Positions 5,147 to 64,000 of a stretch of DNA of 64,000 bases are shown here, piece after piece; positions within the stretch are counted from its first letter, which is position 1, and each line of letters starts with the position of its first letter. The DNA lies in contig OZ237758.1 in the NCBI GenBank assembly GCA_965178125.1, positions 124,001 to 188,000 on the forward strand, written 5' to 3'. The translations under genes and the position numbers were made by a program. Source of the DNA: Bilabrum cf. latius. Lineage: Eukaryota. Under the pieces are notes generated by a model. It did not search any database and was not told the origin of the DNA. It was given only the letters and a program-made list of their open reading frames with translations.

Positions 5147-6985
5147 ATGTCAGGGGCTTCGTCGTAGAATGTGGCACCCCTCCTGAGCAGCGAAGCCGAG
5201 CCGTCAAAGGGTCACGGAGCCAACCATTTTGACGACGATCGCAAACCGCGTATCGGAACGATGTTTTCGTCCATTTTCAACTTGGCTTCCACCATTTTAG
5301 GATCATCCTCCTTGGCGATGGCGTACGCTGTCAGCAATGCTGGTATCGGCCTGTTTGCGGTCCTGCTTGCCATCGTTGGTGTTGCCGCGGAGCGTGCGGT
5401 CTACTACATGGCCAAGGCAACCCACATGACCGGGCATTTCGACTATATGCGAGTTGGTGAAGAGGCGTTAGGGACGTTCGGCCGCCAGCTGGTCATTTGG
5501 TCCATTGTCATTCAGCAGATCGGGGCCGCCGCCGCGTTCATCAATATCGTCGGCGACGTGATCAAGGGCCTGATCGACGTGATCCCCCACGGTGGAGATA
5601 GGGGCATCCTGAGCGAGGCGCGTTTCTGGCAGATTATGATTGCGCTGTGCATCATGCTTCCCCTGTGCCTGTTCCGCACCATCACGGCCCTGCGGTTCGC
5701 CTCGTTGATCGCGGTGTCGCTCGTGATCGGGTTCGCCCTCGTGGTGTGCGTGGACGGGTTCTCCCGCCTGAGCGAAGGGGCCGTGGAGCACGGCAGCGTG
5801 CACGCCGGTCCCTCGGACCCGATCGGCACCTTCGTGAGCCTGCCCATCCTGCTCTTCGCGTTCGTGTGCCACTTCAACGTGCACCCGCTCATGCAGGAGC
5901 TGCAGCAGCCGTCGGAGGCACGGATGGCCTGGGTGGCCCGTGGGGCCGTGGGCATCACCATGGGCATCTACCTCATCACGGGCATAGCGGGGTACCTCGC
6001 ATTCGCCCAGTACACGCAGGCCGATTTGATCTCCTCGTACGAATGCGTGGAGAGGGACCAGCTGCCCGGCGATGGATACGGGCACGGGCACATCACGGTG
6101 CCCAAGGGACTCGTGCTGTTCGTGCAGACGGGCATCGGGGCCGCGCTGACGCTGTCCTTCCCCGTGATAGCCTTCGAGCTGAGGCACTGCCTGGAGCTGC
6201 TCGCCTTCGGTGAGGGGCACGTGTCCTTCGGGGCACACGCGGGTGTGGTGGTGGTGATGGTGCTGGCCTGCGGGTCCCTCGGGGTATTCGTGCCAAACCT
6301 GGGGCAGGTGTTCGGTTTCGCGGGCGCCACGACCTCCAACCTGATCGTGTTCGTGATGCCGGCGCTCTTCTTCCTCAACATCCACTGGAAGAAGCAGAAG
6401 GGGCAGCTGAGCTCCGGGGTGCAGCCGCTCGTCACACTGGGAGACGGCACGGTGCTCATCCCCGGCGAGGACGACGCGCGGATCGACGCACACTCTCGTG
6501 GGGGGCTCAAGCTGGATGATCCCGCGGGCAAGGGGGGCGGCGATGCGGGAGGGGAGGGCGAGAGCGGAGGCAGGGAGCCCAGCTTCGAGGAGGTGCAGCA
6601 CTCCACGCCCAACGGGTTGGGGGGAGGTGCGGGGCGAGGGGCGAACGGCACGGGGGATGGTCGAGCTGCGGCGGGCGTGGGCCTCGTGGAAGAGGCGGCG
6701 CTGCTCGACGCAGGGCCCGGCAGCGGGGCGGGGGTGTCGACCGGTGGAGTCTCGAGCGCGATCAACTCAACATAGGGCGGTGGCAGTGGTGGTGCAGGTG
6801 CAGGCGGTGGCGTTGCATCTGTCCCTGGAGGGGCCGTGGAAGGCAGTGTCGTGACTGACATGGACGTGTACGTTGCATGGGTGCTGGTGGTGATCGGACT
6901 GGTCCTCATCCCTGTGTGCGTGACCGTGCAGGTGATCAAGATCGTGAAGCACGAGGGAGACGAGGGCGACTGCCAGCCCACTTGA
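5147..6985 (+). CDS. Amino-acid transporter (Aa_trans/SLC38-AVT6-like); in-frame TAG at 5165 and 6773
   Basis: SSIFNLASTILGSSSLAMAY and FAFVCHFNV motifs plus multiple TM helices. The last TM helix (VAWVLVVIGLVLIPVCVTVQV) lies after the TAG at 6773. ATG at 5147, TGA at 6983-6985. Confidence 0.88.
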
Positions 6986-7330
6986 GGAACGGTGCACACA
7001 GTGGTGAACTTTGTGGTGAAGGCAGGGGGGGAAAGGAGGGGTGGAAAGGCGGCATGTCACTGCAAGCCCATGTGTCTCGGAGAGAAAGAGGGCGTGGTCG
7101 CAGCCGGGGCCAGCCGGGCTAGTACCCACCTTGCCCTAGCAGTGGCGCAACTTGCGCTGCATTGCATTGCATGAGACCGCGTTTCTTTTTTTACCTTTAT
7201 TGCTAGGTGGGCATGGGTGGTGATTGCCGTGCTGCACACTCGTCCAACAATCCAGAAAATCTAAGTGAGCAAGGGGCGAACCAAAGGATCGCTTTCATGT
7301 ACCACTCCCAAGCCCCTGCATGCCCACCCC

Positions 7331-8666
7331 TCACGCAGCGAACAAGATGTTGGCCGCCTCGTTCTCGTCCCCCCCTGCTGCCCGCAGCGCGTCCTCCACC
7401 TCCCCTCTCGACTTGCCCGTGATCTCTCGCAGCCTGGTGGTCGCCTCAGCATCCACGGGAGCTGCACCTGCCCGCATGCGTGCCATGGATCCAGGCAATC
7501 CATGACCCTAGTCCTACCCGTGGCCACCAGCACCTGCCCCGGCCCCGGCCCCGGCCCCCGCGCCTGCACCAGCTGCGCCTGCGCCAGCACCCGTCCCCGC
7601 TCCAGCACCCGCCCCCGCACCTGCAGCCCCGCCCGCAGCCGCTGCAGCCCCCCTTCTTCTGGCCTGCATCTCCTGCCGCAGCACCGCCTGCGCCTGCTCC
7701 GGAGGCAGCTGTGCGAGCAGAGCCACCCTCCTCCTGGCTTCCTCCATCGATTCGGCCCTCCCCACCGCGGCCGCCCTCGCACGCACAGCCCTCTCCGCCG
7801 CCTCCTGCGGGGAGGCCTCCTTCAGAAGCGGGCCCAGCACGGTGCCCAAGACCGTGTTAATGGACCGCGGCACCTCCATGCCCCCGAGTCCTGTGCCCTG
7901 CGCCGCACCCAGGGCCCAGAGCCCGCCCACCGCGCCTCCCCCGACCGCCAGGGCAATGCCGCCATACCCACCGAGCACCGAGGCGACTGCGAGCAACGCG
8001 CCATTTATCAGCTTGCTTGGAAGGGGGATCCCGTAGGCTACTTCAGGGTGCCGCTCCCTTGGCATGATCATGACCTGGGCGACGTAGGCAGCGGCACACG
8101 CTGCTAGAGGCCCAGCCGCCACCCTCCGCGACATCGCGAGAGATACCGACATCAACCCTGCTGTGCCACCAGAGACGAGCGCCGCGAGTGCAATTGCTCC
8201 AAACTTGCGGGACCCAATGATCCGCTCGAGCTCTGCTATTCGGAAAGCAAGGGACGAGCAAGCAATAAACTGCGCAAGGCTCGGGCTGGCAAGCTGCGCC
8301 GTCAGCAGCCTCCACAGCTATCCCTGCGCGAGCACCCTGTTGTCTGCAGTGTAATTCATGTAAGGATGAGTACAAGCATGCCAGAATGACTGGGTCGCGC
8401 ACGCGGCATTGCAGCAGCAGTGAATGGAAGCGAGAATCGCTGTGAGAATGCGCTCACCTAGACTGAACCAGTCATTTGCGGTCCCTTTGGCTGCACTTGC
8501 CGCCAACGTCAGCGCAATGGATACTACAAATAGTACCTTGGTGACAGGGGCGTTGTCTGCGAACAGCTCAAAGGGATTCCGCGGACAAACAGAGCAAGCG
8601 ATTGGGAGGCACGTCCTCGAGTGAGCGCAGCACGAGACTGCAAGCCAGCTTACACAGAACGGGCAT
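7331..8666 (-). CDS. UBAC2/Dsc2-like rhomboid-pseudoprotease with C-terminal UBA-like domain; exons 8666-8654, 8556-8458, 8343-7331; TAG at 8318, 7514, 7508
   Basis: Spliced N-terminus MPVLYNAPVTK; G*LWRLLTAQL rhomboid/Derlin WR motif; LERIIGSRKF. The UBA-like tail VDAEATTRLREITGKSRGEVEDALRAAGGDENEAANILF is reached only through two TAGs. Ends TGA. Confidence 0.8.
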
Positions 8667-8886
8667 GGCGCACTATGCACAGATGTGCAGTTAAAGATGG
8701 TCAGGTCGAGCTCTTAGTCCGGCTATTCAGCACCCCGATGTAAAGCGGATGCCACGTTTCGATGTTTTTGGTCATCCAATCGGAGCCGCCGCACTGCAGG
8801 CGCTTCAAGTTTCGTTGCCGTTCGTTCGTAGCAAACAGCTGCGCGCATCGAAGCCTGTCACGGTTCGAGGTCGAACTGCTTGTTCG

Positions 8887-10839
8887 ATGGCGTTCATCTC
8901 AAATGCCATTTAGGCAGCCAACGACCTGCTGGACTCTGCCGATGCGGCAGTGGACGAATCGATCGGGGATGCCAAGGGCAAGCGACGAGAACGACGCCGC
9001 GGCATCTTGGCTAGCCCAACGCAACTCAGCCGAGGGCAAGATCGGAGCTTACCACAGCAGGAGGGCACTCCAAGCAAGAACGGCGCCGCCATGGCGTCTC
9101 TGCAGAGGTCTGGGCACGTGGCATCGGGTGGTTCAGAGCAGCTGTTCGCGTCCCTGTCTCGTGAAGAACTGGAGGAGCGCGCGGCTGAGCTCGACGATAC
9201 CGTCAACGGATTGCGGCAGCAGCTTCGGGAGGCGTACGAGGACGGCGCGAGGTACCGCCGCGATGCCGAAGCCACGCGGAGGCTGCTGAAGGAGGCGGAC
9301 GCGGACGCCGTCGAGGAGGCGCGACGAGCCGCCGAGGCGGCCCGCGGCCGGGAAGAGGCCGCCCTGCAAGAGGCACGCGCCGCGCAAGAAGCTCTCCGCG
9401 CCACTCGCGAGCGCGCCGAGACGGAGGTGGCCCGCGCGGAGGAGCAGGTGGAGGCCGCTCGCAGGGACCTGCAGGACGGCCGCCAGAGGGCGAGCGCGAG
9501 GGAACAGCAGCTCGTGGAGGAGGTGCGCGAGCTCGCGGCGGAGGCGGCGCAGGCCCAGGCGCGCGCGGAGAGCGCGGAGGGGCAGGCGCTCCGTGCATCG
9601 CACGGTGGTGCAACCTCCCCCAGCCTCACGGACGGGCAGGGACAGGGGCAGGGGCAGGGACGGGTCCAGAGCGGGGTGGTGGGGGACGAAGAGGCACGGA
9701 GGCTGCGGGCATCTGCGGCGGGGGCCCGGGAGGAGGCGGCGAGGGAGCGGGCGCGTTGTTCCCTGCTGCAGGCGCAGCTGCGGTCGGCCAGGGACGAGCT
9801 GGAGGAGGCGCGAGCCCAGGGGCGGGCGAGGAAGGAGGAGGCCCAGGCGGCGAGGCAGGCGCTGAGGGCCGAGAGGGCAGCGGGCAAGGAAACGGAGGAG
9901 AGGGCAGCGGCGGCAGCGGCGCGGCGTGCCGAGGCCGGACTGCAGGCCAGCGTGGCCTCTTTGCGACGAACTGCGGGCGCGCTGCAGCTGAGGGTTGACT
10001 CGGCCGAGGCGGGGCGGGAGGCGGCGGAGGAGCGGTGCCAGCAGCTGGAGGCCACCGTGGGGAGGGTGGCTCGGCGGGCGGCAGCGGCGGGGGTCCCACT
10101 GGGGCCCGAGGACCTGGTGGGTCTGGGGGCCGGGGGCGTGGGGCTGCCGAGGCTGCCCTCCAGCGCAGGTGCATCGCACGGTGGTGCGCCGGGGCTCGTC
10201 AGCCGGAGAGGGGGGTCACGAGCAGGTGACCCCAGCTGGGGGGCGGGGGGAGCACCCATGCTCGGAGGCGATCCTAGTGGGGGCCGCCGTCGCGCGGGCA
10301 GGGGCAGCTCCGTGGGCGCCCTGCTGCCGGCAGCTGCGCCTGCGAAACTCGTGGCGGCGACGCGCGCGGCGGACGGCGCGGTGCTCCGGTGCCTGGAGCG
10401 GGCGCACCGGCTGCCAGTGCTGCGCCTGCTGCTGATGGCGTGGGCGCTCCTGCTGCACCTGTGGGTGGGCTGGCACTGGCTGGGGCTGGGGTCGTCCGGC
10501 AGCAGGGGGCGGGGCCCAGGGGGGAACATGGATGGGGGCGGGTCGATGGGGGGCGGCCAGGCCGCGGGCAGCGAGAGCGGGCTCGCGGCCAGGCCTGGCG
10601 TGGGTGACTTCACGAGGCAGGTGGGCGTCCTGGACCACCTCAAGGCCGGGACTGAGACGGGACAGGGGGTCAAGCAGGTGCTCTCGAAGTCCGAGAGCCG
10701 GGATGGATAGCAATCGATCTAGCAGCAGAACGCGAGGCAGGAGAGCGGGTTGGCGCCAAAGAGGGGCGACAAGTCGCCGGTACGCGGTCGCGGTGATGCA
10801 GGTGCCGGCGGGTTGAACGAGGCTAGCAAAGGAACATGA
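8887..10839 (+). CDS. Golgin-84-like coiled-coil membrane protein; TAG at 8911, 10708, 10720
   Basis: N-terminus MAFISNAI*AANDLLDSAD resembles the golgin-84 N-terminal motif (xxAEDLLxxVD). Long coiled coil. TM segment RLPVLRLLLMAWALLLHLWVGW resembles the golgin-84 RYPxARxxxxxYxxxLHLW segment. Ends TGA. Confidence 0.7.
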
Positions 10840-11180: not shown

Positions 11181-14100
11181 TCACGACTCGTCCCCAGCCT
11201 GCAGCAGGCTCGCCAGCTCTTCCTCCGAGAGTATCTCTTCCTCCAAGTCCCCGATCACCTCGTGCACCTCCTCCTCTTCGATGTCGAAACCGCTGTACTG
11301 GTACGGCACCTGCTCGTAGGTCTCCAGGCCCTGGTCCAGCACGTGCCCCTGCGCATCCAGCGGGATGACCACGCCCTCGTACCTGTCCCTGGCGCTGCGG
11401 CGGTTGACCAGCACCTCCAGGTTGCGCTTGTTCTCCAAGTCCTGGTCGATCCGCTTGTACGCCTCGTGGTCCGGTCGCAGCTTCCGCAGCAGCTGGGTCC
11501 TGGGCCCGGCCCCCTCCTGCTCCGCACTTGTTCCCTCGGCCATGGCCGCGTCCCTCTCGTCGCTGAGCATCGCGGGCCGCGGCCTCCAGGAGACAGTGTG
11601 CAGCACTGACACCCGCTGGTCCTGCATCTTCTTGCCGAGGATGTCAAACACGGACCACCCGTTGTTGGACTGGTCCGCTGGGATCTGCACCTGCGCGATG
11701 TCCGGGTGCTCGTGCTGCTGCGAGCACAGAACCACCCTGCCGCTGGGGCTCCAGTGCAGGTTGTTGCACGCGCACGACACGTGGCTCATGACCTTGCCGG
11801 TCTCAACATCGTAGAACTCGAGCGAGTTGCTGGGGCCCGCGATCAGCAGCACCCGCCCCGCCGGGCTCCACGCCAGCCGCGAGGCGGCCTTGTCGTGCAG
11901 CTCGCGCAAGACGGGGGTCTTGGCGCCCGCCATGCCGGCTCGCATCACGTCCACCGCGGGAGCACTCGCCGCGCCCCGCTTCCCGCCCCGCTTGCCCTTC
12001 TTGCCCTTGCCCTTGCCGCCCGCCCCCGGGACCGCAGACCCCCCTGCCCCGGCGCCCCGCTGCTGCTGCTCCTTCATCCTGGCTGCGGGATCCGTCGAGT
12101 ACACGCGCACCGTGCACTTGTTGCGGTCGTGGCCATAGGCCACCGCGAAGCAGTCGCCCCTGCCGTGGTCTGGCCGGCCCGTGGCCCGCCTCCTCCTCTT
12201 GCCGGCACCGATGCCCGCGCCACCCACGATCCCGCCGCCCGACCCGGACGAAGGTCCATCGCTTCCGCCCGAGCCCCGCTCCCACGCCACGTGGTCGGGC
12301 CGCGGCTCCCACTGCACCGCATGCACCCTTGTGGGCACCGTCACCGCGTCCACCTGGCAGGGCAGCCTGCCCTCCGCGTTGCGGGCCCCGAACCGGTACA
12401 CGTCGATCTGGGTGTTATCGATGGCGTCGTCGCGGAGGCCGTCCGCCCCGCCGTGCTCCGCCAGCATCTTCTCCGCGTTCTTGGACTTTACGGTGAGCAT
12501 CTCCGCGGCGAGGTAGTGCCCCTCTGGGTGCCAGTGCACCCTCAGCTCCGCCACGTGCATGCGCTTGTTCCCCCGCACCACCCTCAGCTTGGGGTTGGTC
12601 GCCAGGCCGAGGTCCAGCACCTCGAGGTACACGCCCCCGGGGCCACCATCAGCGCGGTACCACGCCAGCAGCGAGTTGTTCCCACCCGGGGGGCAGCAGA
12701 GGCCCGTGATGCCCACGGTCTTGATGGCGTCATCCATCGCCGGAGTCATGTCGCGCGTGGTGCCGTCCCCACGCGTGCGGTACACCATCAGGCCCGCCTG
12801 GGTGGCCCTGTAGAAGAACTTGCTGTCGGCTGTGAAGCCCGCCATGGGCTCGGCGGAGTCGGGGTTACCCTGCGGGAATGACTCGAGCTGCCTGCCGCTG
12901 AGGACGTCCCACACCTGCAGGTCGCACACGTGCTTGTCGTTGCCCTCGAATCCGCTGAACGTCCACATGAGCGTCTCGTCGTTGCTGTACGCGAACTGCC
13001 TCAGCGTGTGCGGCTGCCTCATGCCGAACATCTCCACAAACTGCTGGCTGTGGTCGAATACCCGGTGGGAGCGGAACCCGCCTTCGTTCGTGTGCGTCTG
13101 CTCGATCGTCTCCGCGTTGTGCGCGGCCAGGTACGTCCCCTGGGGCGACCAGCGCACGGCGTAGTCTGCCACCACGTCGCACTGAGGCACCTCCTTGCCC
13201 TCCTCCTGCCCGGCGCCAGTGCCGTCGCCCCCACCAGGCACGTCCTCCACGCGCCCGTGCCCGTCGCACCACATGACCTGCGTCTCGTCCCCGCTCACGC
13301 GCAGGGCGAATTGGTCCCTGGACATCGGATCCAGCATCCACTCGTGCGCTCCGGGGGTGGGCACGCAACGCAGCTGCGCCACCTCGGGGGCCGTGCCGCC
13401 GGCCTCCTGCACGAACTTCTGGGCCTCTGCCACGGAGTGGTAGGGGAACACCTTGACCACGGCCTTGGCGGACTTGTCGCTGATGGGCAGCCCGTCGATC
13501 TCGGTCTCGCCCTTCTTGAGCTCGTAGCTCTCGGGGACCTCCCTCCGCTTGAAGTCGGGGATGAACCGGCCCTTGGCGTCCTTCATGAACTACCCCGTGG
13601 CAGGGTCGCGCTTCTTTACCTTCGCGATCACGTACCTGGTCTTCCGCACCTTCTGGTACAGGTCGTAAGCAGATTTTGGGCTCTCAAAGAGCACCATCGC
13701 GTCACCCGTCGTCTTGCCGTCCTCTCCCACCGCCACTTCCAGACGGAGCACGTTGCCGAATTCGCCAAGCACGCGGAGCAGAGTACGACGCATTGCATCC
13801 GGCTTGCTCACTACAGGGACGTTGCTCAGGAGCATAATTTCGTCCATTGACTGCGAAGTCGGGGGCGACGGCTGATGGTTTAGTGCAGTCTCGAAAGGCG
13901 TCCTAGCGGTGCCATAAGTTGCCACACAGGCCACCCAAAAGGCGTGAATAGATATAATTGCAATAAAAACGACCCGTTGCGCATGCGGAGCTGCTCGATG
14001 CCTGGCCAGGCCAGCTGAGAACTGCCGTTCTAGGCGGGGTTCCTTGCTTGAATCCTAGCGCCGTCTTCAGCCCACAAAGATTACAATCAAAAGCGTAATC

Positions 14101-21464: not shown

Positions 21465-21617
21465 CAGGATTGTGCGTTGGTGTAATTATGGCCCCACAGC
21501 ACGGAGATCCTCGATGATTCATCGCATTTCGCCGCGATTTATTATCATTGGTTGCGTGTACTTGTGACGCACAGAGATTTGTGTCCGTACAGCACAAGGA
21601 GCCCCGACTCGACGGTG

Positions 21618-28192: not shown

Positions 28193-28314
28193 GGCTACCA
28201 GAATGTGGAGAAAATCTGTGTCGCAGGCCTCCACCGAATACCAGTTGCGAGTAGTTGTAGAGAAATCTGAATTTGAACAAGAGCCGGCGAATCCAGAAAG
28301 TAGTACCGCAATAC

Positions 28315-42822: not shown

Positions 42823-42974
42823 TTTGCTATGATTCTATTGAGTGAGAAAGTTAAAGTATCGAGCGAGCTTATTTTGCGGTTCGGATTCCGAGTGGTTGTC
42901 AAAATGCCTGCCAGTTGTGTTTGCTGTGGAGATTTTCAAGATTTCTTCTCAGAAGCATTCTGCACTTCCATTTC

Positions 42975-50600: not shown

Positions 50601-50931
50601 CAAAGAGCGCGGCAACATAGATGGCAAGAGTCCACTGGCAGGGGATCATGGCGAAGAGGCAGGCAGTGGCAGTGGGCGGGAGGAGTCGCCGACCGCTGCA
50701 GGCAGAGACGGGGTGGCGGTACCCGTGGACGAGGGCAATGCCAGTGGGGATGATGACAGTCTGCTGGACCAGCTGCCTAGCCCGTCGGACGTGGAGGCAG
50801 GCACAGCGAGCAGGGCGGGGCAAGCCGCGGCTGCAGATGCCTCTGGGGAAGACGTTGGCGCCACATACGACCTCAGCCAGGAATAGGCCCAGTCCCGGGC
50901 GCCTGCCAGGCCGTCCTCACCCGAGGGCTGA
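44620..50931 (+). CDS. Myosin heavy chain (motor, IQ motifs, coiled-coil/low-complexity tail), about 2103 aa, 13 in-frame TAG
   Basis: DDLVQL*HLHEP, IYTYVGAILISMNPF, GESGAGKT, LEAFGNAKT..NENSSRFGKF, LDIFGFE, FEQLCINFTNE, PHYVRCLKPN, GKTKVFF and IQ repeats. All pieces are in frame 1, TGA at 50929. Confidence 0.95.
48109..48195 (+). repeat. (GCACCT)n coding microsatellite, poly-(AP) linker in the myosin tail
   Basis: Directly visible. Confidence 0.9.
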
Positions 50932-54100: not shown

Positions 54101-56136
54101 CATCCCAGCCGGAAGTCCAGCACCAGCCCCGCCCTGCAGAGCTGGCTCCCAAAGTGCCTGGACCCCGTGCCGAGCAGCAGGCCCAGCCGACGGGGGTCCA
54201 GCGCGTGGGAGGTGCCGTCACCGGGCACAGGTGCACCGCCTGGGACGGAGACCGGCTGTGTAGACGCCGCTGCTGCTGCAACCGTTGGTGCCCGAGGCGC
54301 GGACTTCGAGTCGGCCAACGACACGGATACATCGCTGCTTGCCGCCACCCCGCTCTTGCATGGTGCGACGCTAGGTGCGGCAGCAGCAGCAGCAGCGGGC
54401 AGTTGGCTGGTTGTCCATCCCCGAAATGTGGGCAGCTTGCTCCACGACTCGTCTCCCAGCAGCACGTGCAGCCGAGGCGACACTGGTGGCACCTTCCCCT
54501 CCCTAATGCCCCTGCACGCCGCCTGGAACATGCGCAGGGGCATGCCGGGAGTGCTGAATCGGATCAACGTGTGGTCGGCGTCGAACCCGATCCAGTCAGG
54601 GGGGCTCCCGGCCGCGCTGCCTCCCCCTCTACCCGTGGCGGGGCCACCGAGCCGCAGCGCGTCGTCTGCTCCGCCGTCCCGGAGCAGCGGGGGAACCAAA
54701 TACGGTTCCGAATGATGGGCCGGCCGCATCGATGTGACCGCCGCAGCACTGCTCTCGGCGCTTGCATCGCCCATGCCTCCGGTCCCTGCCCCCGGAAAGC
54801 CCACGGCATCTACCCTTGAGGCAGGGGAAGGGACATGTGCCCGCAGACTAGACACCGCCCGCACCCTCCGCCACGCCTCCGACTTGGCCAGCGCGGGGCC
54901 TAGCCGCCGGCGCTCCCCTGGCAGGTGCATGGCGAAGAGAGCCACGTGCCCGTCAGCCACCCTCCGGGCCACCGCCGCGCCACTATCCCTCGGGTCAGCC
55001 GCTTGCCCTGGCCCTGGCTCTGACCCTGGCTTTGTTCCCTCTGCTCCCAGTGCGCGCCGGAGTGCGCCGGCTACGCCATCGCCCCCGTGCTCCGGACCTG
55101 GCTCTGCCACCTGCAGCTCGCCCGCCGCTTTGTCCAGGAGGGCCTGCGCCGCCACCGAGAGAGCGGTGCCTCCCCTGGCCAGCACGTCCTCCCACAGTGC
55201 CGCAATGCAGTGCATCGGCAGGCCAAGGGACAGCCCTAGAGTGCCCACCAGTGGGACGGCGATCGCGTCTGCCGGTCCCATGCCCATCCTGGCCAGCTCT
55301 GTGCAAGCGGCGGGCGAGCTGAGGAGCAGCCTGTCCCCGATGGCCATGGACAGGGACATCGCCCCCTCTTGGCTCCACGGGAGTAGCAGGGCGGCGACGG
55401 GGGAGCCGGGGGGCGCTCTCGTGTCTGGGGGAGCGGGGAATGAGGCCCCGCGACTAGATCGGGACCCTTTCGAAGGAGGAGAAGAGGAGGAAGCAGCAGG
55501 CGAAGAAGGGCTGGAAGAGGACGACGGTCTCCATTCCTGCACCGCACCTTCGCCGCTCCCGCTCGTGGTACCTGCCTTGCGCGAATGTTCGCCCGCCCAC
55601 AGCCAGGGGCCATCCTACCAGCCAGCAGATCTAACCCAGAGCGCACACATATGCTGTGCGGTCTCTTGCACAGAAAGCCCCATCGCGAGCGAGATGGCGC
55701 ACGCGAAAGGTAGCCACGATGCAGCATGAACGTCGCATCTTGGCAAAACTTGCAGCAGTACCGTTACACAGGCTCGCACCGCCACTTCAAACCCATGGGG
55801 TCCGATTGGAGACTCGCAATCGATTGCATCGCTAGCTGCAGCGCCGCCTGCAATTATAGCCAGGCATTGCGACGCAGGCGGCAGTTTCCAACCTGATTCG
55901 GCTACCCCAATCGTCGCAAGTTTAGCTGCAAGCGATACATGGGATTCTAGAGGGTCTCCACCAGCAGTAGTGGACACATCACCGGAGATTTTCTTAGCAG
56001 TCATGTCACGGAATAACTCTTCTCCAAGTATGCCCAAGAATCGTTCCGTGTCTCGCTTGTGCCGCGGAAGCGCATCGATCCCGAAAGCTCTCCAGCGTCT
56101 GCAGTAGTCGCTACGAAGTGAACTAGATGATGACAT
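51178..56136 (-). CDS. Fusion of a TBC/Rab-GAP-like N-terminal region and a HAD 5'-nucleotidase (NT5DC/cN-II-like) domain, about 1652 aa; TAG at 55615, 53884, 52540
   Basis: Nucleotidase motifs in order: WIGFDADHTL, RAGLVLDFRLGCIL...WHG, LFLVS...WWELFDLVVCGADKP, VYTGGS, YVGDAFSLD...GWQTVLVAPEL. TBC-like LPMHCIAALWEDVLARGGTALSVAAQALL. One frame, ends TGA. Confidence 0.72.
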
Positions 56137-56314
56137 GATATCACGCAGATTGCATTCCAGAAGGTGATATTCTGTGCATCACGGGGCCCAATGGGTGTTT
56201 CTTGAGCCAAGTATTGCAGTGCGATGCATCTTGCATACTAAACCACACGCAACAATTCATTGCGTACCGTTTGTTGGATCTGCAGTTTCACCTAATTTCA
56301 GGTAGGGCTGAGTA

Positions 56315-59300
56315 ATGAAGCCGTCCAGTAGCTTTCCATAGCGTGTAGCATAGTAGGTTGCAGCCAAATATGTAAGTATATCGCCTTCATCGCCATGCAC
56401 TTGCCTCTGTGGCAGTTTGTCTTGAGACTTCGAGCATGGCAGCCATATTCCCTGCCTTCTCCTGGTAAATTTGCAGGGAGGGACAAAAAAATTGCGAAGC
56501 CGGCGTAAAACACCATCATCGTCTGGTTCAGTGCGGTCCGGCAATGTAGAAGCAGATTTTGATCGAGATGAAGGCTTCGTCCAAGGTTCATCGCGTTCAA
56601 GCCCTGCTAGAAGCCCAGCCACGGCGCTTACGGCTCAGAAGACAAGCTTGCAACAGAAAAAGTCTAGAAAGCCGCTTCAGGCTATCTTGATTCCTAGTGC
56701 CGAAGGTGCAGACGGAACAGCATCGTCCACGCCGACAGATCGAACTCCAGCCGCTTCTACGCCATCCATAGGCGCAGACAAGGCCAAGAGAAAGGCCCCG
56801 CGATCTGTCCTTAAACCTCAAGGAGAAGTAACTCAACGAAGCAAAGGCAGTCGCGTGAGTTTTGATCTGGAAGACGGGACATCTCCCCAGCCTGCCGGGA
56901 GTTCAGCCGGCTCAGAAACGGCTACGCCGGCCGGCAGCACCGTGTCTGAGACCCCTAGCGAAGCTGTAGCCGAAGAGACAGCAACCAAGGATGGTCATGG
57001 TGCTTGCACGAGGAGCTCTGCGCACAGCACCCCTCAGTTGACTCGGCCTCGGCAGCTCTCAGCAGGCGCCAATCAGCCCGAGGAAGAGGATCAGGGCCAG
57101 GACCAGGACAAGACCGAGGAAGAGTACCAGGACCAGACCCAGGACAGGTACAGCACACCACCCCAGCAGCAGCATGCCCCTGGGGAGGTAGCCGCCCCTC
57201 GCTCCACGGCCAAGACGCCGAGGACTCCCGGGGGGGGAGTCACGCCCCGCACCTCGTTTGCTAGAGCGTTTGGGGCCGGTGCAAAGGGGAAGGGGATGGT
57301 TGGTAGCAGCGGCAGAGCAGTTGCTTCTTCCTCGCCGTCCTAGGCGGAGGCGACTCCCGCCAGTGGGATGGACAAGAGCAGATCAGGCCCCGTGCTGTCG
57401 GTGCCCACCCCCATGACCTCTGCCAGGAGCCAGGGGAGCGCGCCCGCCCCCACCATTGACCTGCTGCAGCGACTCAAGAGGGAGGCGAGGCATGCGGCGG
57501 ATCGGGCAGGGACAGAGGGCGACGAGGACGATGGGCATTTTGACGTGCATAGCGTGGTTCGGGATGTGTCTGCTCGATGGAGCGAGTGCGTCGGTGTTGC
57601 AGAGAGGCTGGTGGAGGCCGTGCAAATGCGATCCTCTGAGATGCAGGCAGCCGAGATGGAAAGGGCCGAGGCGGCCGAGGGCGAGGCTGAGGAGACGCGA
57701 AGGGAGCTTGAGGTGGCGCTGTAGGAGAGGGAGCAGGCGGTGCAGGAGAAGGAAGAGACCGAGCAGGAGAGGGAGGAAGCGCTTAAGGCGGTAGAGCAGG
57801 CCACCCGGTCCATGGAGTAGGCCGAGGAAGAGAAGCAGCAGGCGCTGCAGGCCCAGAAGGCCGCCGAGGACGAAAAGCAGCAGGCGCTGCAGGCCCAGAA
57901 GGCCGCCGAGGACGAAAAGCAGCAGGCGCTGCAGGCCCAGAAGGCCGCCGAGGACGAAAAGCAGCAGGCGCTGCAGGCCCAGAAGGCCGCCGAGGAAGAG
58001 AAGCAGCAGGCGCTGCAGGCCCAGGAGGCCGCCGAGGAAGAGAAGCAGCAGGCGCTGCAGGCCCAGGAGGCCGCCATCGCCAAGGCCCAGAAGGAGGCCC
58101 TTGAGGCAGGAGGGGCAGACGCAGCCGCCCTGCACCAGGCAGAGGCCAGGGCCATGGGGCTGCAGGCAGAGCTGGAGGCCATGCGCGCGAGCGAGGCAAA
58201 GGCGCAGGAGGAGCTGGCAACGGCCGAGTCCGCGGCGGGGTGCGCCATGGAGGACCGGGAGCGCCTCGATGCCCTGGTGCGGGAGCTGCAGGAGCAGCTG
58301 GCGGGCGAGGCCGCCGCCCGCAAGGAGGCCGAGGCGGAGACCGAGTCCACCAAGGCAGCCCTCCTGCGGACCGAGAGCAGGGTGCAGGACTCGGAGCAGG
58401 AGCAGAGCGAGCTGCAGGAGCAGCTGGAGGCCATGCGGGCGCGGCACGCCGAGATGGACAAGGAGCTGGACCAGCTGAGGGAGAAGGAGAGCGATTCCTC
58501 GAGGAAGATTGCGGCTGCCCTGGACGAGGTCGGGGAGGCCCAGGGGCAGCACCGCGAGAGGCTAGAGGCGCTGGAGGAGACGCTCAAGGGTGCGCGGGAG
58601 GAGTACTCCAGGGAACAAGAGATGCACTCCAAGACAATCCGTAGGCTGGAAGAGGCCAAGGCAGTGCTGTCCGCGGCCCGCAACGACGCAGAGCAGTCGA
58701 GGAGGCAGCTTGACGAGGCCGAGAGCAGGGCCTCGCTGGTGGGAGAGGAGAGTGAGGAGCTGAAGCAGGCCGTGGCCAGGCTAGAGCACGAGGCCAAGGC
58801 GGCCAAGGAGGCGGCAAGGGAGGCTGGTGTGATATCGGCGCGGGTCAAGGAGCAAGCCGAGCAGTCCAAGCTGGAGGCCTCCGAGGCGCAGGCTGCGGCA
58901 GAAGAATCCAGTAAGGAGGCCCGAATGCTCCGGGAGCAGCTCGATGAGGCCAAGGAACAGCTGCAGCAGCAAGAGTAGGAGCAGCAGGAGCAGGGCAATC
59001 TGAAAGAAGATGTGGTTCCCAAAGAGCAACACGACGCAACGATCGGCGAGCTAGAGGGCGAGCTGAGCGACTGCCGCGCGCAGCTCGAGACCAAGTCCAA
59101 GGAGGCACAGGAGCTATCCGCCCAGCTGGAGGCGTCCAGAGAGGAGGTTCATAGCCTTCAGATGGAGGTGTCTGGAGCCAAGCACAGCTGCATGCAGGCC
59201 GAGTGTGAGGCGCGCGATGCAAAGGAGGGCGCCAGCGGGCTGCAGGCCAGGATCAAGGACCTTGAAGCATCGGCGGGAGCAGCAGGATAGGAAGGGACGA

Positions 59301-62300
59301 GATGGAGGGAGGCCCTCGAGTCCGCGGAGCGCTCGCACAAGGCGGCTCTAGAGGCTGCTGGCAAGGACAAGGAGGCTGCCGTGGACGCCGCGACCGAGGC
59401 AAATTGCCGCGCGGATCAGCTCGAATCATAGATCAAGGGCCTCCGAGACGAGCTGAGCCAGCTGCGAGAGCAGGCGGAGAAGTCCGAAGCCGGCCTGCAG
59501 GAGAACTTGGAAGAGGAGAGCCAGGCCAGGGCCAAGGCTGAGAGCGATGGCCGCGATGCCAAGCAGTCGCTGCAGGAGGCCAAGGAGCAGCTCGATGCGG
59601 CCCAGGGCAGGGCCCTCGCACTCGAGCAAGACCTCTCTCAGGTGCGAAGTGACCTGCGGGCTGCCCGCGCCGAAGCAGCAGGACTCCGAGCTGCCGCTTC
59701 CGCGTCCGAGGAGGCCCTCAGGGAACAACGGGTGGCGTGCGACGAGCTGAGGGCGAGGCTCAGGGAGATCACGCCAACCCGGCCCTCGACGGGTCGCAAG
59801 GAGCCTGCTGTTCCCCCCGGGTCCGGCTCCTCCACGGGCTCCTCGATGAGGGCCGCCATGCTGGAGGTGGCGGCGGCTCTGGGGCCCGGGACCCCCGAGT
59901 CGGAGGCACCGGGGGGGACTGGTGCGGGCGGGGTGGTCCAGGGGTGGCACGACCAGGACCGGGACCAGGACCGGGATCAAGACCGGGACCGGGAGGACCG
60001 CGACATCGTCACGCCGCTCCGGCCCATCGTCGGGGGTCATGCACAGGCTTAGGCCCAGGCCCGCACGGGCCAGAGCGGGCAGGGCGCGGTGGCGGAGACC
60101 CCCATGACCAAGATGCTGAGAGAGAGCAGGGCGAGCGCCGCCAGCGCTGCTGCCAGGAAGTTCAGCTTCGAGCAGTAGGAGCAGGCGGGGAGCGGGGCGC
60201 GGGACCGCGCCAGGACGGAACTGGGGAAGGCTCGTTCCATCGTGACTCGGCTGGAGGGGGACCTGGCAGCGGCCACAGCCCGCGCCGAGACCGCGGAGGC
60301 AAGGCTCCGCCGAATGGAGCAAGGCAAGACGAGGCAGGAGGGCGCGGGCGGCTCGGAGGGAGGCCAGGAGCATGGGGCCCTCAGGGAGGCGAGGCAAGCC
60401 GAGGCGCAGGCACTGGAGGAGCTTGCCCGCGCGAGGGCGAGGGCCTCGTCAGCGGAGCAAGCACTCCGCCGATCTGAGGAGGCAGGGGCCGAGCTGGAGC
60501 GGCGGCTGGAGGAGCTGCAGGGCGGTCTGCAGGAGACCAGGGGGCTCCTGCGGGAGGCGGAGGCCAGGGAACAAGGGGCGCTGCGCCGCGCGGAGGACGC
60601 CGAGAGCGATCTCGCGAGGGCGAGGGAAGAGGCAAGGGCCAGCACGCAGCGGGCGATCGAGGCCAGTGCGGCTCTCGAGGCGGTCAGGGACGAGGCAGAG
60701 ATCGGCTCGAACCTTGAGGCCGCGCGTCAGAAGGCCACGGGCGAATCGAGCTAGTGGTAGCAGCAGTCGCCAACCACTCTTGTGATCAGCAGTGGTAGAG
60801 GCGAGCAGCAGCAGCCCCGGCCCTACTCTGCGTCAGCCGCCCTCCAGCGCGCGCAGGACGAGGCACGGGAGGCGCGCGGCACCCTCGTTGCGGAGCAGGC
60901 AAGGTGCGAGTCGCTCCGTGCCTCTCTGGAGTCCAAGGGCGAGGAGGTCCAGGAGCTGCGCCGCCGGCTGGCCGGAGCCGAGCAGCAGGCCTCGTCTGAG
61001 AGAGCGGGCCGCGCCGCAGCCGAGCAGGACGCCGCTAGGTTGCGGGCCGCCGCGGCGTAGGGTGACGGGGCACTGGCCGAGTCTGTCCGCAGGGAACAGT
61101 CGCTGGCGGCCGAGTGCGCTGGGCTCAGGGAGCGGCTGGGCAAGGCGGACGCCGCGCTGGCCGTGGCAGGGGAGCGCCTCCGTGCCGCGGAGGGTCAGAT
61201 GCGGCAGGCGCAGGAAGAGGCCAGGGCGGACCGGGGACAGCTGCACGAGGCCAAAGAGGACGCCAAGGCCGCCAGGTGGGCGCTGGCCGACGCAGACGAT
61301 AGGCTGCGGCAGGCCCGCCAGGCGGCGAGCACCGCTGCTCAGGACCGGGAGGCCAAGCAGGCAGCGGAGCAGGAGGCCTCCGAGGCGAGGCGTGGGCTGA
61401 GGAGGGCGAGGCAGGCCCGGGCCGAGGCGGAGCGGAGGGAGGCCGGGATGCGGGAGAGACTAGAGGCCACCGAGCAAAAGCTGCAGCTTGCCGGTGCGAG
61501 GGCCAGGGAACAGGAGAGGCTGTGCGCGGAGGTGCAGGGACAGAACCGGGGCCTCGTGGCAGAGTGCGCCGCCCTGGCGAGAAGGCTCTCGCAGGGACCC
61601 GCGGCGAAGGTGCAGGCGCTGCAGCAGCAGCAGCAGGAGCAGGAGGATGGGAGCGAAATGCAGGGGTCATAGCACGAAGCGGCCGAGTCCACTGGTCGGT
61701 GTGCTATCGGGAAAGGACACTAGCAGAGGCAGGGGCAGGAGCAGAGGCTGCCGTCCAACTCCCCCACTGACGCAGGGCTCAAGCAGCAGGCGGCGGCCCC
61801 TGCGACCTTGGCCCTCAGGGCGCTGGCCGCATCTGGGACGCCGTCGGCCCAGCAACCTCCTGCCGATCCTCCCGTCCAGGCGCTGCGGGCCACGACCGCC
61901 CTGGGACTGGGGCAGGGACTGGGTCAGGGCACGGAGACCAGCACGAATGCCGTGCCTCAGCCCGCGCCCCTTGCTGCCTCAGTGGCTCTCGGGATGGGCA
62001 GGGCAACAAGGATGGAGCAGGCGCAGGGGCAGGCGCAGGCCTCGCCAGCGCCGTCCACGGCAACGTTCGGTGCCGGGCTCGGGCGCACTGCTGATTCGCT
62101 CGGATGGCAGCCGACTGGCACCGGCCACTCGTCACACGCTGCCACACTGGCCGAGAGAGTGCTCCATGAAACCAGGCGGCCAGTCCAGCAGCAGCAGCAG
62201 CAGCAGCAGTCTACTGGCAGCTAGCTCGAGGGCAAGGGCAAGGGCAGGAGTGAGATTGCAACTGCGGAGGAGAAGCCCTCCGTGACTGTGTGGCTGCTGC

Positions 62301-64000
62301 AGCGGCGCGTGGAGGCCCTGGAGAGGGAGAAGCAACAGCAACAGCAACTGCACTTCACGCAGAAGGACGAGGCCGCCAGTACCGGCAGCTGGTACGACAG
62401 TGCCGACGAACAAGAAGCGGGTGAAGAGGATGACACGCTCGAGGACTTGGTGTCACCCCCGGCGCAGCCGCACCCATCTTCACGCGGTAGCAGGACACGC
62501 AAGTCCACGCGGGCACGTGCCGCTTCTTCTTCTTCTTCTTCTGCGTCCAAGGGCAGCCGAGTCCGTGCTGGTTGCTCCTCCCGGAGAGGCGGGTCTGGTC
62601 ACAGGCAGCAGCGGATGCGCTCTCAACCAAGTGGCGCAGCGCGTGCCAGGGATACCAGCAGAAAGGGCAGAGGCAGGGACAGGGACAGGGTTAGCCGCAG
62701 CCATCGCCGGAGGGTGGCTTCCCTCTCGCCCGCATCTGCAGGGACCAGGGAGCTCGAGGCTGACGTATCGCCGCCAGCACCCGTCGCTGCACGCGGACGC
62801 GTTCACAGAGGGTCCAAGGCCCGCAGGGTCTCCACCCGGGCCGCGCGCACTGTCCCTAGCTCTGGTTCTGGGTCTGGCCCCGCCAAGGTGCTTCCCTGGG
62901 AGCATGCTGCAGGTTTGCATGCAGCTGGCCACGGCCGCATGGAATCGAGCGCATTTGCGCCCCTTGGGGAGGAGGACGAGACGGGGTCATATGCGGAGGA
63001 GTAGGAGACTGGCAGCTCGATGGTGGATGACTCAGGCGCGCTGAACACCGTGAGTGAGTCAAGGCACTACGTCGTTGAGGAGGAGGAGGAGGAGGACTCG
63101 AGGTTCGGGCCTTCCAATGGTGTCCTGCCAGCCGATTCCACGACTGACATGTCTGCGGCGCTGGACGAGGAGGAGCGCATGAGGATGAGGAGCAAGAGCA
63201 CAGCGGGAGCAGAATACGATGATGAGGAGGAGGAGCAGGAGCAGGAGCAGGAGGATACGTCGAATGGCAGTGACCTGCCAGCCCCGACGGCCCTCGTGTT
63301 CAGAGAGGCAGCCAAGGACCGGAGAGCATTCCCCCTCGCTGGCGCGAGAGCGAGGGGAGCGAGGGCGCCGGAGAACAAGGAGGGGAGGCGGCACGCAGCC
63401 GAGTCTGCCGCGAGGGTGAGGCGGTCCAAGTCTAGGAGCAGGGGCGCCAAGAGGAAGAGCAAGAGCAAGAGCAAGGGCAAGGACAGCGGTCAGCGCGAGG
63501 CCACTGGCGCGGCGATGCCTTGCAAGGCAGGTGGACCGCGACTGGTGGGACACACGCCTATCCGCGGCGCATCGGCGAACGCCCCTGCTCCCGCGTAGAT
63601 GGTGCCATGGGAGGCCCCCGGGCATGCCTCGCGGTCGCGTTCCCTCCCTCGTGGCGTGCATCGCACTGCGGGGCATGCCAGGCCAACGGCTGGGGCAAGC
63701 TCCCTTGGGACGGGGGCCGCCCCTCGGCGGGCAGCTCCCAAGGCCTCCCCGCACAAGGGGCCTGGTCGCAGAGCCGTGTCCACTCCGAGGAAGGACCACA
63801 AGGCGGGTGCTTCCAGGCCAGGGGTCGGGGTCGGGGGAGAGGCAGGGGCGCCTTCCGCTGCCCTCGGTACGACGGGGCCTGGGCGTGCCCCCGCCGGACC
63901 GGTCAGCTGGAACACTCGTCATCTCAGCAGCAACAGTAGTCACACTAGTAGCTCCCGGCCAGTGGGGCCATCTCTTGCTCGGCCGGGAAGCTCGCTACCT
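56315..64000 (+). CDS. Giant coiled-coil protein (>2500 aa, runs off the window); exon 56315-56371, intron 56372-56476; 18 in-frame TAG
   Basis: Eleven ORF pieces from 56471 to 63598 share frame 2 and are separated only by TAG. E/A/Q/R-rich heptad-like sequence. GTAAGT...TTGCAG intron. No TAA/TGA to the window end. Confidence 0.8.
57821..58072 (+). repeat. 42-bp coding tandem repeat x6 (AE[DE]EKQQALQAQ[KE]A)
   Basis: Units start at 57821, 57863, 57905, 57947, 57989 and 58031. Confidence 0.93.

What the first reader, a model, noticed from the sequence alone, without database searches (positions are those of the whole stretch)
5147..64000. Non-standard nuclear genetic code: UAG appears reassigned from stop to glutamine
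Seen: more than 80 in-frame TAG codons (hand count) split nearly every gene, and each gene continues in the same frame (myosin 13, coiled-coil 18, orphan 14, QC 6, PCC-alpha 5). Established: the TAG at 27058 (minus) sits in the biotin carboxylase motif ERECSI[Q]RRNQK. The TAG at 30565 sits in the aminopropyltransferase motif LDGKx[Q]S. The TAG at 8318 (minus) sits in the rhomboid/Derlin G[Q]xWRL motif. TAG also occurs inside Gln runs (CAG CAA TAG CAG CAG at 49303-49317; QQQE*EQQEQ at 58976). Essential domains lie downstream of TAGs (myosin P-loop, last transporter TM helix, UBA, RAP, eIF3b propeller). Inference: UAG is decoded as Gln. The GC-rich, low-complexity-insert gene style does not look ciliate-like and suggests a flagellate protist such as a stramenopile, where I know of no such code; the taxonomy is not established here.
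Basis: partly seen in the sequence, partly recalled or inferred. Interest (0 to 1): 0.97.

Follow-up and report, generated by a model that had tools for sequence, protein, structure and literature searches.

The report
UAG read as glutamine, stramenopile nucleus
A GC-rich protist contig, apparently from a relative of the flagellate Cafeteria, uses the normal stop codon TAG as an ordinary codon, most likely for glutamine; this would add a rare nuclear genetic-code change to a major eukaryote group where none seems to be reported.

Summary
In 17 coding frames (16,443 codons) there are 88 in-frame TAG, 0 TAA and 0 TGA. The other five frames of the same intervals carry all three. TAGs lie inside homology-supported domains such as the myosin head, PCC-alpha and thermospermine synthase, and homology continues in frame past them.

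Contigs of two public runs carry intron-less GT..AG joints and keep 12 of 12 and 10 of 12 TAGs in 25000-34400. No difference is listed at those places. This argues against assembly error, introns and editing.

Glutamine is the best-fitting residue. TAG aligns to Gln in 147 of 148 PCC/biotin carboxylase homologues and in 3 of 3 aminopropyltransferase structures. Gln is the most likely of 20 residues over 9 columns, and ordinary Gln codons cluster around TAG.

TGA ends 15 of 16 genes, and TAA is never internal. So the code matches the known UAG=Gln, UAA/UGA=stop type.

The nearest named relative is Cafeteria. Seven literature searches found no stramenopile nuclear code change.

The tRNA, eRF1 and peptides could not be tested. 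Whether TAG still stops some genes is open.

The parts
4949..6985 (+). Amino-acid transporter (Aa_trans) gene. 2 in-frame TAG; a hydrophobic, helix-like C-terminal stretch lies after the second. Ends at TGA.
   Evidence: Pfam E=2.7e-45; TAG at residues 73 and 609 of the ORF, stop TGA
7331..8713 (-). Membrane protein with a weak rhomboid-like region. 3 in-frame TAG, including 8318-8320 in 'AQG[TAG]LWRL'.
   Evidence: Codon confirmed. Pfam Rhomboid only E=0.0084, below cut-off; no PDB relative.
8695..10839 (+). Coiled-coil-like ORF without a family. 3 in-frame TAG; ends at TGA.
11181..14066 (-). Divergent eIF3b-like gene (WD/eIF2A domain). 2 TAG in the ORF, 1 after the first Met. Ends at TGA.
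   Evidence: Pfam. Best database relatives only 21-27% identical. Positions.
14536..18897 (+). Nma111-like serine protease (Trypsin_2 + PDZ). 5 in-frame TAG; ends at TGA.
   Evidence: Pfam; homologues; TAG columns
19072..20835 (-). Gly/Met/Gln-rich ORF without a family. 4 in-frame TAG.
21486..24428 (+). ORF without a Pfam family. 4 in-frame TAG; ends at TGA.
25300..28205 (-). Propionyl-CoA carboxylase alpha gene with two introns (27681-27873 and 27956-28090). 5 in-frame TAG: 28139-28141, 28091-28093, 27478-27480, 27058-27060 and 25330-25332. ORF ends at TAA 25300-25302.
   Evidence: Pfam and PDB; joints; intron ends and exon translation; TAG places
27058..27060 (-). TAG in the biotin carboxylase motif ECSI[TAG]RRNQK.
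   Evidence: Homologues have Gln in 147 of 148 filled cells; 150 homologues, 2 gaps, 1 Arg. 2 of 2 PDB alignments shown have Gln.
28156..30009 (+). Weakly glutaminyl-cyclase-like ORF. 8 in-frame TAG, 6 after the first ATG at 28315. Ends at TGA.
   Evidence: Pfam Glu_cyclase_2 E=5e-6; TAG places
30166..31440 (+). Thermospermine/spermidine synthase gene with one intron (30253-30422). 1 in-frame TAG at 30565-30567 in LDGKT[TAG]S. Ends at TGA.
   Evidence: Pfam. PDB best match is thermospermine synthase; Gln at that column in 3 of 3 alignments shown. Joint.
34160..35308 (+). Paralogue 1 of a duplicated ORF. 5 in-frame TAG.
36513..38297 (+). Paralogue 2 of the duplicated ORF. 6 in-frame TAG. 5 TAG are shared with the upstream copy (3 within ORF 34160-35308, 2 at 33845 and 33908); 1 aligns with CAG there.
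39208..42822 (+). Repeat-rich orphan ORF. 14 in-frame TAG; ends at TGA.
42855..44315 (+). Cysteine-synthase-like PLP enzyme. 4 in-frame TAG: 2 before the domain, 2 in the C-terminal tail. Ends at TGA.
   Evidence: Pfam PALP E=2.7e-69; PDB; positions
44620..50931 (+). Myosin heavy chain. 13 in-frame TAG; 2 precede the P-loop within the motor domain. Ends at TGA.
   Evidence: Pfam Myosin_head E=1.3e-213; PDB alignment across the TAGs; homologues
51178..56178 (-). Long ORF with a 5'-nucleotidase-family segment. 3 in-frame TAG; ends at TGA.
56426..64000 (+). Coiled-coil ORF running off the window. 16 in-frame TAG, including 58976-58978 in QQQE[TAG]EQQEQ.

Best explanation
The window is nuclear DNA of a GC-rich stramenopile whose nearest named relative is the bicosoecid Cafeteria.

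In this organism UAG is an ordinary sense codon read as glutamine. It makes up about a tenth of Gln-type codons: 88 TAG against 752 CAR. Translation ends almost always at UGA, and UAA is probably also a stop. This is the code type known as UAG=Gln with UAA/UGA=stop.

Shown: TAG is in frame inside genes, inside conserved domains and in intron-less transcript-like contigs, and it aligns with invariant Gln.

Inferred, not shown: a tRNA-Gln with anticodon CUA, one base away from the CUG isoacceptor, decodes it, and eRF1 has lost most recognition of UAG. A likely route is that GC pressure made TGA the dominant stop and TAG rare as a stop, so that its capture by Gln cost little.
For: 1. Frame statistics: 88 TAG, 0 TAA and 0 TGA in 16,443 coding-frame codons. 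The other frames carry TGA at 0.61-1.56%, TAA at 0.13-0.27% and TAG at 0.31-0.65%.

2. Homology runs through TAGs in one frame. The myosin P-loop and the rest of the motor lie after TAGs at residues 102 and 188. PCC-alpha aligns on both sides of residues 77 and 217. The aminopropyltransferase does likewise.

3. Residue identity:
- PCC-alpha residue 217 aligns with Gln in 147 of 148 filled cells.
- The aminopropyltransferase column has Gln in 3 of 3 shown PDB alignments.
- At myosin residue 1056 the Cafeteria-clade relatives have K3, R2, Q3, and the three Q rows share '..QEARNV'.
- Over 9 well-filled columns Gln has the best log-odds, -1.33 against -5.46 for Ala, the next best.

4. Context: CAR-Gln is 1.78-fold enriched within 3 residues of TAG, second only to Gln itself at 2.02-fold. 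Only 2 of 5000 random position sets reach this.

5. Paralogues: of 5 paralogue comparisons that changed at a TAG codon, 2 are CAG. Five TAG are conserved between the duplicated copies.

6. The letters are real and stay in processed RNA-like contigs:
- Run X2 carries the unspliced form with 0 other letters over 27503-32511.
- X5 and X6 come from two other studies. They carry joints with GT..AG ends on the gene's strand: 30251>30422, 27677>27871, and in X6 also 27954>28090.
- X5 covers 10 of 12 and X6 covers 12 of 12 TAG codons in 25000-34400. No difference is listed at any of them.

7. Stops: 15 of 16 complete ORFs end at TGA and 1 at TAA. In ORFs of 600 or more codons read with TGA as the only stop, every in-frame TAA that falls in one of these genes' frames lies upstream of the gene or at the PCC-alpha end.

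8. No read-through context: the base after TAG (A .25, C .22, G .48, T .06) resembles that after CAG, GAG and AAG.

9. Mechanistic precedent: a tRNA-Gln(CUA) reads UAG but not UAA, and eRF1 is changed in Iotanema (passages of PMC5304391).
Against: 1. Most TAG columns are not Gln in homologues:
- PCC-alpha residue 77: Ala 96, Val 18, no Gln.
- Protease residue 1356: Asp 15, Asn 2.
- Myosin residue 102: Pro 69, Thr 18.
The Gln call therefore rests mainly on two invariant columns plus context. The margin over 9 columns is only about 4 natural-log units.

2. In two genes a TAG stands close to where homologues end. In PCC-alpha it is the residue after '..IIEF', where the closest homologue has one more residue and stops. 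In the PLP enzyme it is 5 residues after the last PDB-aligned residue. TAG may therefore still terminate there.

3. No tRNA gene lies in the window. No genome is held. No eRF1 was seen.

4. The kind of runs X5 and X6 is not on record. The tool guesses 'RNA?', and for X5 'probably DNA'.

5. ORF length alone does not discriminate: reading TGA as sense also lengthens ORFs in this GC-rich DNA.
Confidence: 0.85

Rival explanations
1. Ambiguous code: UAG is read as Gln inside genes but still ends translation near some 3' ends, as the context-dependent codes of Condylostoma and karyorelict ciliates do.
For: A TAG sits at or next to the homologues' C-terminus in PCC-alpha and 5 residues past the last aligned residue in the PLP enzyme. 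4 of 16 genes have a TAG in their last 50 codons.
Against: From the per-codon TAG rate, 0.54%, my own arithmetic puts the chance of at least one TAG in 50 codons at about 24%. That predicts about 4 of 16 genes by chance, which is what is seen. TAG positions are spread over all deciles of the ORFs: 15, 9, 5, 5, 6, 11, 5, 8, 12, 12. Homologues mostly have a residue (Glu in 63) at the PCC-alpha column, not an end.
Confidence: 0.1
2. UAG is a sense codon for a residue other than Gln, or is decoded as a mixture by near-cognate tRNAs.
For: Several TAG columns hold Ala, Pro/Thr, Asp/Asn or Glu in homologues. Some TAGs lie in acidic runs such as 'DEDD[TAG]DEDEED' (translation).
Against: Only Gln fits the two invariant columns. 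Ala, the next-best residue, is about 4 log units worse. The neighbour profile is Gln-like.
Confidence: 0.04
3. Both UAA and UAG are reassigned (ciliate/Hexamita-type code), and TAA is merely rare in GC-rich DNA.
For: TAA is rare in every frame. Only one gene ends at TAA.
Against: There are 0 in-frame TAA in 16,443 codons. CAA makes up 112 of 752 CAR codons, so by my arithmetic about 15 TAA would be expected beside 88 TAG. In ORFs of 600 or more codons read with TGA as the only stop, every in-frame TAA that falls in one of these genes' frames lies upstream of the gene or at the PCC-alpha end.
Confidence: 0.03
4. Artefact or decay: mis-assembly, sequencing error, pseudogenes, RNA editing of TAG to CAG, or small introns that hold the TAGs.
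For: None found. The RNA nature of X5 and X6 is a guess of the tool.
Against: The same letters appear in contigs of X2, X5 and X6, three studies. Only one of the three stop triplets occurs in frame, and there are no frameshifts across homology. The TAGs persist in contigs from which the real introns are removed.
Confidence: 0.01

Closest known systems
Iotanema spirale (Fornicata) nuclear code: UAG=Gln, UAA and UGA stops (PMC5304391, passages read; PMC11687900 discussion)
   Same: Only UAG is reassigned and it goes to Gln. UAA and UGA are kept as terminators. The organism is a non-ciliate flagellate.
   Different: It belongs to an unrelated supergroup (a metamonad anaerobe, known from a transcriptome). 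Here the genome is GC-rich, the organism has a mitochondrial-type PCC, and TGA rather than TAA is the dominant stop.
Protocruzia tuzeti and two phyllopharyngean ciliate lineages: UAG=Gln only (PMC11687900 discussion passage). NCBI table 15 carries this assignment; the table name is recalled, not from a call.
   Same: The same codon table.
   Different: These are ciliates. The window's best-matching genes are stramenopile, and its gene style (65% GC, long low-complexity inserts) is not ciliate-like.
Ciliate/dasycladacean/Hexamita code: UAA and UAG both Gln (background in PMC5304391)
   Same: Stop-to-Gln reassignment. tRNA-Gln(CUA) is documented there.
   Different: TAA is not a sense codon here: 0 in frame, about 15 expected.
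Rhizarian exLh (UAG=Leu) and Scotinosphaera (UAG=Ser), with UAA kept as stop
   Same: The meanings of UAG and UAA are uncoupled.
   Different: A different amino acid. Leu and Ser do not fit the invariant-Gln columns.
Cafeteria roenbergensis/burkhardae nuclear genome (bioRxiv 10.1101/751586, abstract and passages)
   Same: The nearest named relative by myosin: 52% identity, same 98%-supported clade. Also very GC-rich, about 70%.
   Different: The paper reports a non-standard code only for its mitochondrion. Its myosin orthologue was predicted as an uninterrupted 1837-1903 aa protein.

Membership tests
UAG=Gln nuclear code with UAA/UGA as stops (table-15 type) | In-frame UAG inside conserved protein-coding genes, with the frame and homology continuing | tested here: met
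   88 TAG in 17 coding frames. Alignments run through TAGs in PCC-alpha, myosin and the aminopropyltransferase.
UAG=Gln nuclear code with UAA/UGA as stops (table-15 type) | UAG columns correspond to Gln in homologues | tested here: met
   Gln in 147 of 148 cells and in 3 of 3 alignments. Gln is the best of 20 residues over 9 columns, with a margin of about 4 log units. Six of those 9 columns are variable or non-Gln.
UAG=Gln nuclear code with UAA/UGA as stops (table-15 type) | UGA and UAA absent in frame and used as terminators; UAG not used as terminator | tested here: inconclusive
   TGA ends 15 of 16 genes and TAA ends 1. No internal TAA or TGA was found. TAG as a terminator cannot be excluded for PCC-alpha and the PLP enzyme.
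UAG=Gln nuclear code with UAA/UGA as stops (table-15 type) | UAG present in mature mRNA (no editing, not intronic) | tested here: met
   Intron-less contigs of X5 and X6 keep 10 of 12 and 12 of 12 TAGs, and no difference is listed there. The library type of these runs is not on record.
UAG=Gln nuclear code with UAA/UGA as stops (table-15 type) | tRNA-Gln with anticodon CUA | not testable with these tools
   No tRNA in the window and no genome held.
UAG=Gln nuclear code with UAA/UGA as stops (table-15 type) | eRF1 N-domain changes that weaken UAG recognition | not testable with these tools
   eRF1 is not in the window and no genome is held.
UAA+UAG=Gln code (ciliate/Hexamita type) | In-frame UAA as well as UAG | tested here: not met
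   0 TAA in 16,443 codons. In ORFs of 600 or more codons read with TGA as the only stop, every in-frame TAA in one of these genes' frames lies upstream of the gene or at the PCC-alpha end.
Context-dependent stop/sense codes (Condylostoma, karyorelicts, Blastocrithidia UAA) | The same codon is sense internally and a stop at transcript 3' ends | tested here: inconclusive
   Two suggestive TAGs at protein ends, but no enrichment of TAG near ORF ends.
Programmed stop-codon read-through | Few sites, with a special downstream context | tested here: not met
   88 sites in 16 of the 17 genes (MINDY has none). The following base resembles that after CAG, GAG and AAG.
Stramenopiles, near Bicosoecida | Genes group with stramenopile, specifically Cafeteria, orthologues | tested here: met
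   One gene only. In the myosin FastTree, the window sits in a 9-row clade (98) with Cafeteria and unnamed sequences. The top named PCC-alpha hit is Chrysoparadoxa, an ochrophyte. No rRNA or multi-gene placement was done.

The most novel reading that the evidence does not exclude
This is the first nuclear genetic-code change in Stramenopiles, and it is not a clean reassignment. UAG would be Gln internally yet still terminate at some gene ends (PCC-alpha, the PLP enzyme). That would be an intermediate, context-dependent stage caught in a GC-rich genome where TGA has almost monopolised termination, and so a live example of codon capture in progress.
Probability: 0.1. Interest if true: 0.88.

Novelty: new member of a known kind. 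Interest (0 to 1): 0.78.

Why it matters
Nuclear code changes outside ciliates are few. Cases where UAG and UAA have different meanings are fewer still. The passages read name Iotanema, Protocruzia, phyllopharyngeans, a rhizarian, Scotinosphaera and one uncultured ciliate (UAA=Lys, UAG=Glu).

A stramenopile case would be a further independent origin in a major supergroup. Genome-like and transcript-like data for the organism already exist in public runs, so the tRNA, eRF1 and the role of GC pressure could be studied directly.

There is also a practical consequence. Standard-code gene callers break these genes into pieces. The database holds 278-292 aa pieces of a roughly 700-aa PCC-alpha from a close relative. 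Such organisms are therefore mis-annotated, and their proteins are under-represented in databases.

Tried and rejected
- **tRNA.** No tRNA gene in the window.
- **Sequencing runs.** No RNA holder listed.
- **Read laying.** The part beside it was laid instead.
- **ORF length under alternative codes.** Not diagnostic. TAG-as-sense raises ORFs of 600 or more codons from 6 to 18, but TGA-as-sense raises them to 28.
- **Internal paralogue test.** Too small: 5 changed codons, giving CAG 2, TGG 1, TCG 1, AAA 1.
- **TAG share inside domains.** TAG among Gln-type codons is 5 of 110 inside Pfam envelopes and 28 of 273 outside. Fisher p=0.105, not significant.
- **PDB searches.** No hit for the protease at E<=1e-10. 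Only low-complexity matches for the rhomboid-like protein.
- **eIF3b homologues.** Only 11 hits at 21-27% identity, too distant for column work.
- **Metagenome scan with the myosin head.** 582 pattern matches, none confirmed.
- **Second metagenome scan.** An alignment of the PCC-alpha variable region gave 80 loci. All are distant (64% or less on the best segment, 47-62% overall), and none is a close relative with in-frame TAGs.
- **The close relative.** Its 81%-identical PCC-alpha fragments P0201, P0301 and P0302 could not be seen as DNA, so it is not known whether their ORF ends are TAG.
- **Literature.** Seven full-text searches (include these) found no report of a nuclear stop-codon reassignment in a stramenopile. 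Supplements were not consulted.


Full report
**What the window is.** The 64-kb window is 57-70% G+C in 4-kb windows, about 64% overall. It is densely packed with eukaryotic genes carrying few, short introns. Pfam and PDB searches identify:
- a myosin heavy chain;
- propionyl-CoA carboxylase alpha (PCC-alpha);
- a thermospermine/spermidine synthase;
- an amino-acid transporter;
- an Nma111-like protease;
- a divergent eIF3b;
- a cysteine-synthase-like PLP enzyme;
- a 5'-nucleotidase-family protein;
- a MINDY deubiquitinase.

Several long ORFs have no family.

**The observation.** With TAA and TGA as the only stops, 18 ORFs hold 96 in-frame TAG. After trimming to likely coding parts, 17 frames of 16,443 codons hold 88 TAG, 0 TAA and 0 TGA.

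The five other frames of the same intervals hold TGA at 0.61-1.56%, TAA at 0.13-0.27% and TAG at 0.31-0.65%. So TAG occurs in the coding frame about as often as in unselected frames, while the two other stop triplets are excluded.

The ORFs were defined by TAA/TGA, so this is only non-circular where homology exists on both sides of a TAG. That holds for the myosin motor (TAGs at residues 102 and 188 precede the P-loop), PCC-alpha (residues 77 and 217) and the aminopropyltransferase. In the transporter the two TAGs flank the Pfam envelope. For the protease only the TAG at residue 1356 has well-aligned sequence on both sides.

ORF length alone is not diagnostic. Reading TGA as sense also lengthens ORFs in this GC-rich DNA.

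The 'rhomboid/Derlin' motif is only weakly supported (Pfam E=0.0084, below cut-off).

**Are the letters real, and are they in RNA?** Public runs of several studies hold the stretch. Contigs of four runs were laid on 25000-34400:
- Run X2 carries the unspliced form with no differing letter over 27503-32511.
- Runs X5 and X6, from two other studies, carry joined forms that skip 30252-30421 and 27678-27870. X6 also skips 27955-28089.

Shifted by the 1-3 ambiguous bases, these are GT..AG introns on the strand of the gene concerned. Their contigs cover genic parts at gene-specific depths. That is the pattern of assembled cDNA, although the library type is not on record and the tool only guesses.

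There are 12 TAG codons in this stretch. X6 covers 12 and X5 covers 10. No differing letter is listed at any of them. One unlocated differing letter exists in an X6 contig over the QC-like gene; the X5 contig over the same six TAGs has none.

Assembly error, TAG-bearing introns and TAG-to-CAG editing are thus very unlikely. The joints also reveal two upstream PCC-alpha exons with two further TAGs in the presequence.

**Which residue?** Two TAGs fall on invariant Gln:
- In the biotin carboxylase motif ECSI-Q-RRNQK, 147 of 150 representative homologues have Gln (2 gaps, 1 Arg).
- In the LDGxxQS motif of aminopropyltransferases, Gln appears in 3 of 3 PDB alignments shown.

Other columns do not speak for Gln:
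- PCC-alpha residue 77: Ala 96, Val 18, no Gln.
- PCC-alpha residue 793: Glu 63, Val 13, Asp 7, Gln 7.
- Protease residue 1356: Asp 15, Asn 2.
- Myosin residue 102: Pro 69, Thr 18.
- Myosin residue 961: Asn 24, Glu 24, Gln 20.
- Myosin residue 1056, among the eight nearest relatives: Lys 3, Arg 2, Gln 3. The three Gln rows share the following 'EARNV'.

A simple log-odds sum over the 9 columns with at least 70% occupancy ranks Gln first, at -1.33. Ala follows at -5.46 and Val at -5.80. This sum does not include the aminopropyltransferase column.

Three independent hints agree:
- Ordinary Gln codons are 1.78-fold enriched within three residues of TAG, second only to Gln around itself at 2.02-fold. 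Only 2 of 5000 random position sets reach this.
- TAG sits inside Gln runs and (GQ)n-like repeats.
- Between internal paralogues, 5 TAGs are conserved. Of 5 changed, 2 are CAG.

I take Gln as well supported but not proven.

**Stops.** Of 16 complete ORFs, 15 end at TGA and 1 (PCC-alpha) at TAA. In ORFs of 600 or more codons read with TGA as the only stop, every in-frame TAA that falls in one of these genes' frames lies upstream of the gene or at the PCC-alpha end. CAA makes up 112 of 752 CAR codons, so by my arithmetic about 15 in-frame TAA would be expected beside 88 TAG if TAA were also Gln. None is seen. TAA is therefore not a sense codon here, though one terminator is thin evidence that it is a stop.

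Whether TAG ever terminates is open. In PCC-alpha a TAG follows '..IIEF', where the closest homologue has one more residue and ends. In the PLP enzyme a TAG lies 5 residues past the last PDB-aligned residue. Yet 4 of 16 genes with a TAG in the last 50 codons is what the overall rate predicts, and TAGs are spread along the ORFs. These TAGs may be relics of former stops that are now read through.

**Who is it?**
- The myosin motor's best named match is Cafeteria roenbergensis, at 52% identity. Other named hits are stramenopiles, then plants.
- In a FastTree of 62 rows, the window's myosin lies in a 98%-supported clade of 9 rows. Its only named members are Cafeteria. The rows were the 48 best hits plus the named hits beyond them; the remaining unnamed hits were left out.
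- The best named PCC-alpha hit is the ochrophyte Chrysoparadoxa.
- eIF3b is only 21-27% identical to anything found.

This is one-gene evidence for a stramenopile near bicosoecids. The organism is not closely related to any sequenced species.

Cafeteria's genome is about 70% GC, and only its mitochondrion is reported with a non-standard code. Its myosin, and the closest unnamed one (P0018, 1595 aa), were called as uninterrupted proteins. This suggests the change is confined to the window's lineage.

A closer relative exists in the databases. Three PCC-alpha fragments of 278-292 aa are 80-81% identical, sit on contigs of up to 9.8 kb, and all end at the same residue. That is what a standard-code gene caller would produce from a TAG-interrupted gene, but I could not see their DNA.

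**Mechanism and comparison.** The code matches the known UAG=Gln, UAA/UGA=stop type. It is reported for Iotanema spirale, Protocruzia tuzeti and two phyllopharyngean ciliate lineages (PMC5304391, passages).

By analogy, decoding should need a tRNA-Gln(CUA), one anticodon base from the CUG isoacceptor. Such a tRNA pairs with UAG but not UAA. It should also need an eRF1 with weakened UAG recognition. Neither could be examined.

The near-monopoly of TGA as terminator in a GC-rich genome fits a codon-capture route. This is inference.

Seven full-text searches found no nuclear stop-codon reassignment reported in stramenopiles. A 2024 overview of stramenopiles mentions codon reassignment only in a reference on mitochondria. 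Supplements were closed, and most subscription-journal papers are not in the library.

**Verdict.** It is a new member (a new lineage) of a known kind of code variant, and of high interest to students of code evolution and protist genomics.

Noticed in passing
33479-35308 and 36190-38297: A segmental duplication carries two copies of an ORF without a family. Five TAG codons are conserved between the copies and one aligns with CAG. The first copy holds a long (GCN)n/Gly-Ala-coding repeat around 34511-34615 that blocked read laying.
   Followed up: partly
25000-34400 (runs X5, X6, X8): Contigs identical to the window occur in runs filed under several different coded organism labels and studies. 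Small shares also appear in runs labelled algae or protist metagenome. The organism may be a co-cultured or contaminating flagellate in other cultures.
   Followed up: no
P0016 cluster: A myosin nearly identical to Cafeteria's (tree branch about 0.001-0.004) is filed in NCBI under a Symbiodinium strain. This looks like bicosoecid contamination of that algal assembly.
   Followed up: no
P0201, P0301, P0302 versus window 25702-26550 (-): Three database fragments of PCC-alpha (278-292 aa, 80-81% identical) come from a close relative. They all end at the same residue, where the window's protein continues. This suggests the relative's gene is also interrupted under the standard code.
   Followed up: partly
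25300-27708 (-): The window's PCC-alpha scores higher against an alphaproteobacterial enzyme (PDB 3n6r, 740 bits) than against the human mitochondrial one (655 bits). It also carries a lineage-specific insert of about 160 residues between the BC and BT domains.
   Followed up: no
2746-4869 (+): The MINDY-like deubiquitinase ORF of 707 codons has no in-frame TAG at all. About 4 would be expected at the average rate.
   Followed up: no
11181-14066 (-): The eIF3b-like gene is unusually divergent. The best relatives in a 5.8-billion-protein search are 21-27% identical, and it has large Gly/Lys-rich inserts.
   Followed up: no
39208-42822 (+) and 56426-64000 (+): Very long repeat-rich ORFs (SDMD-type, GGAAKAD-type and EKQQALQAQKAAE-type tandem units) carry the highest TAG counts, 14 and 16.
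   Followed up: no
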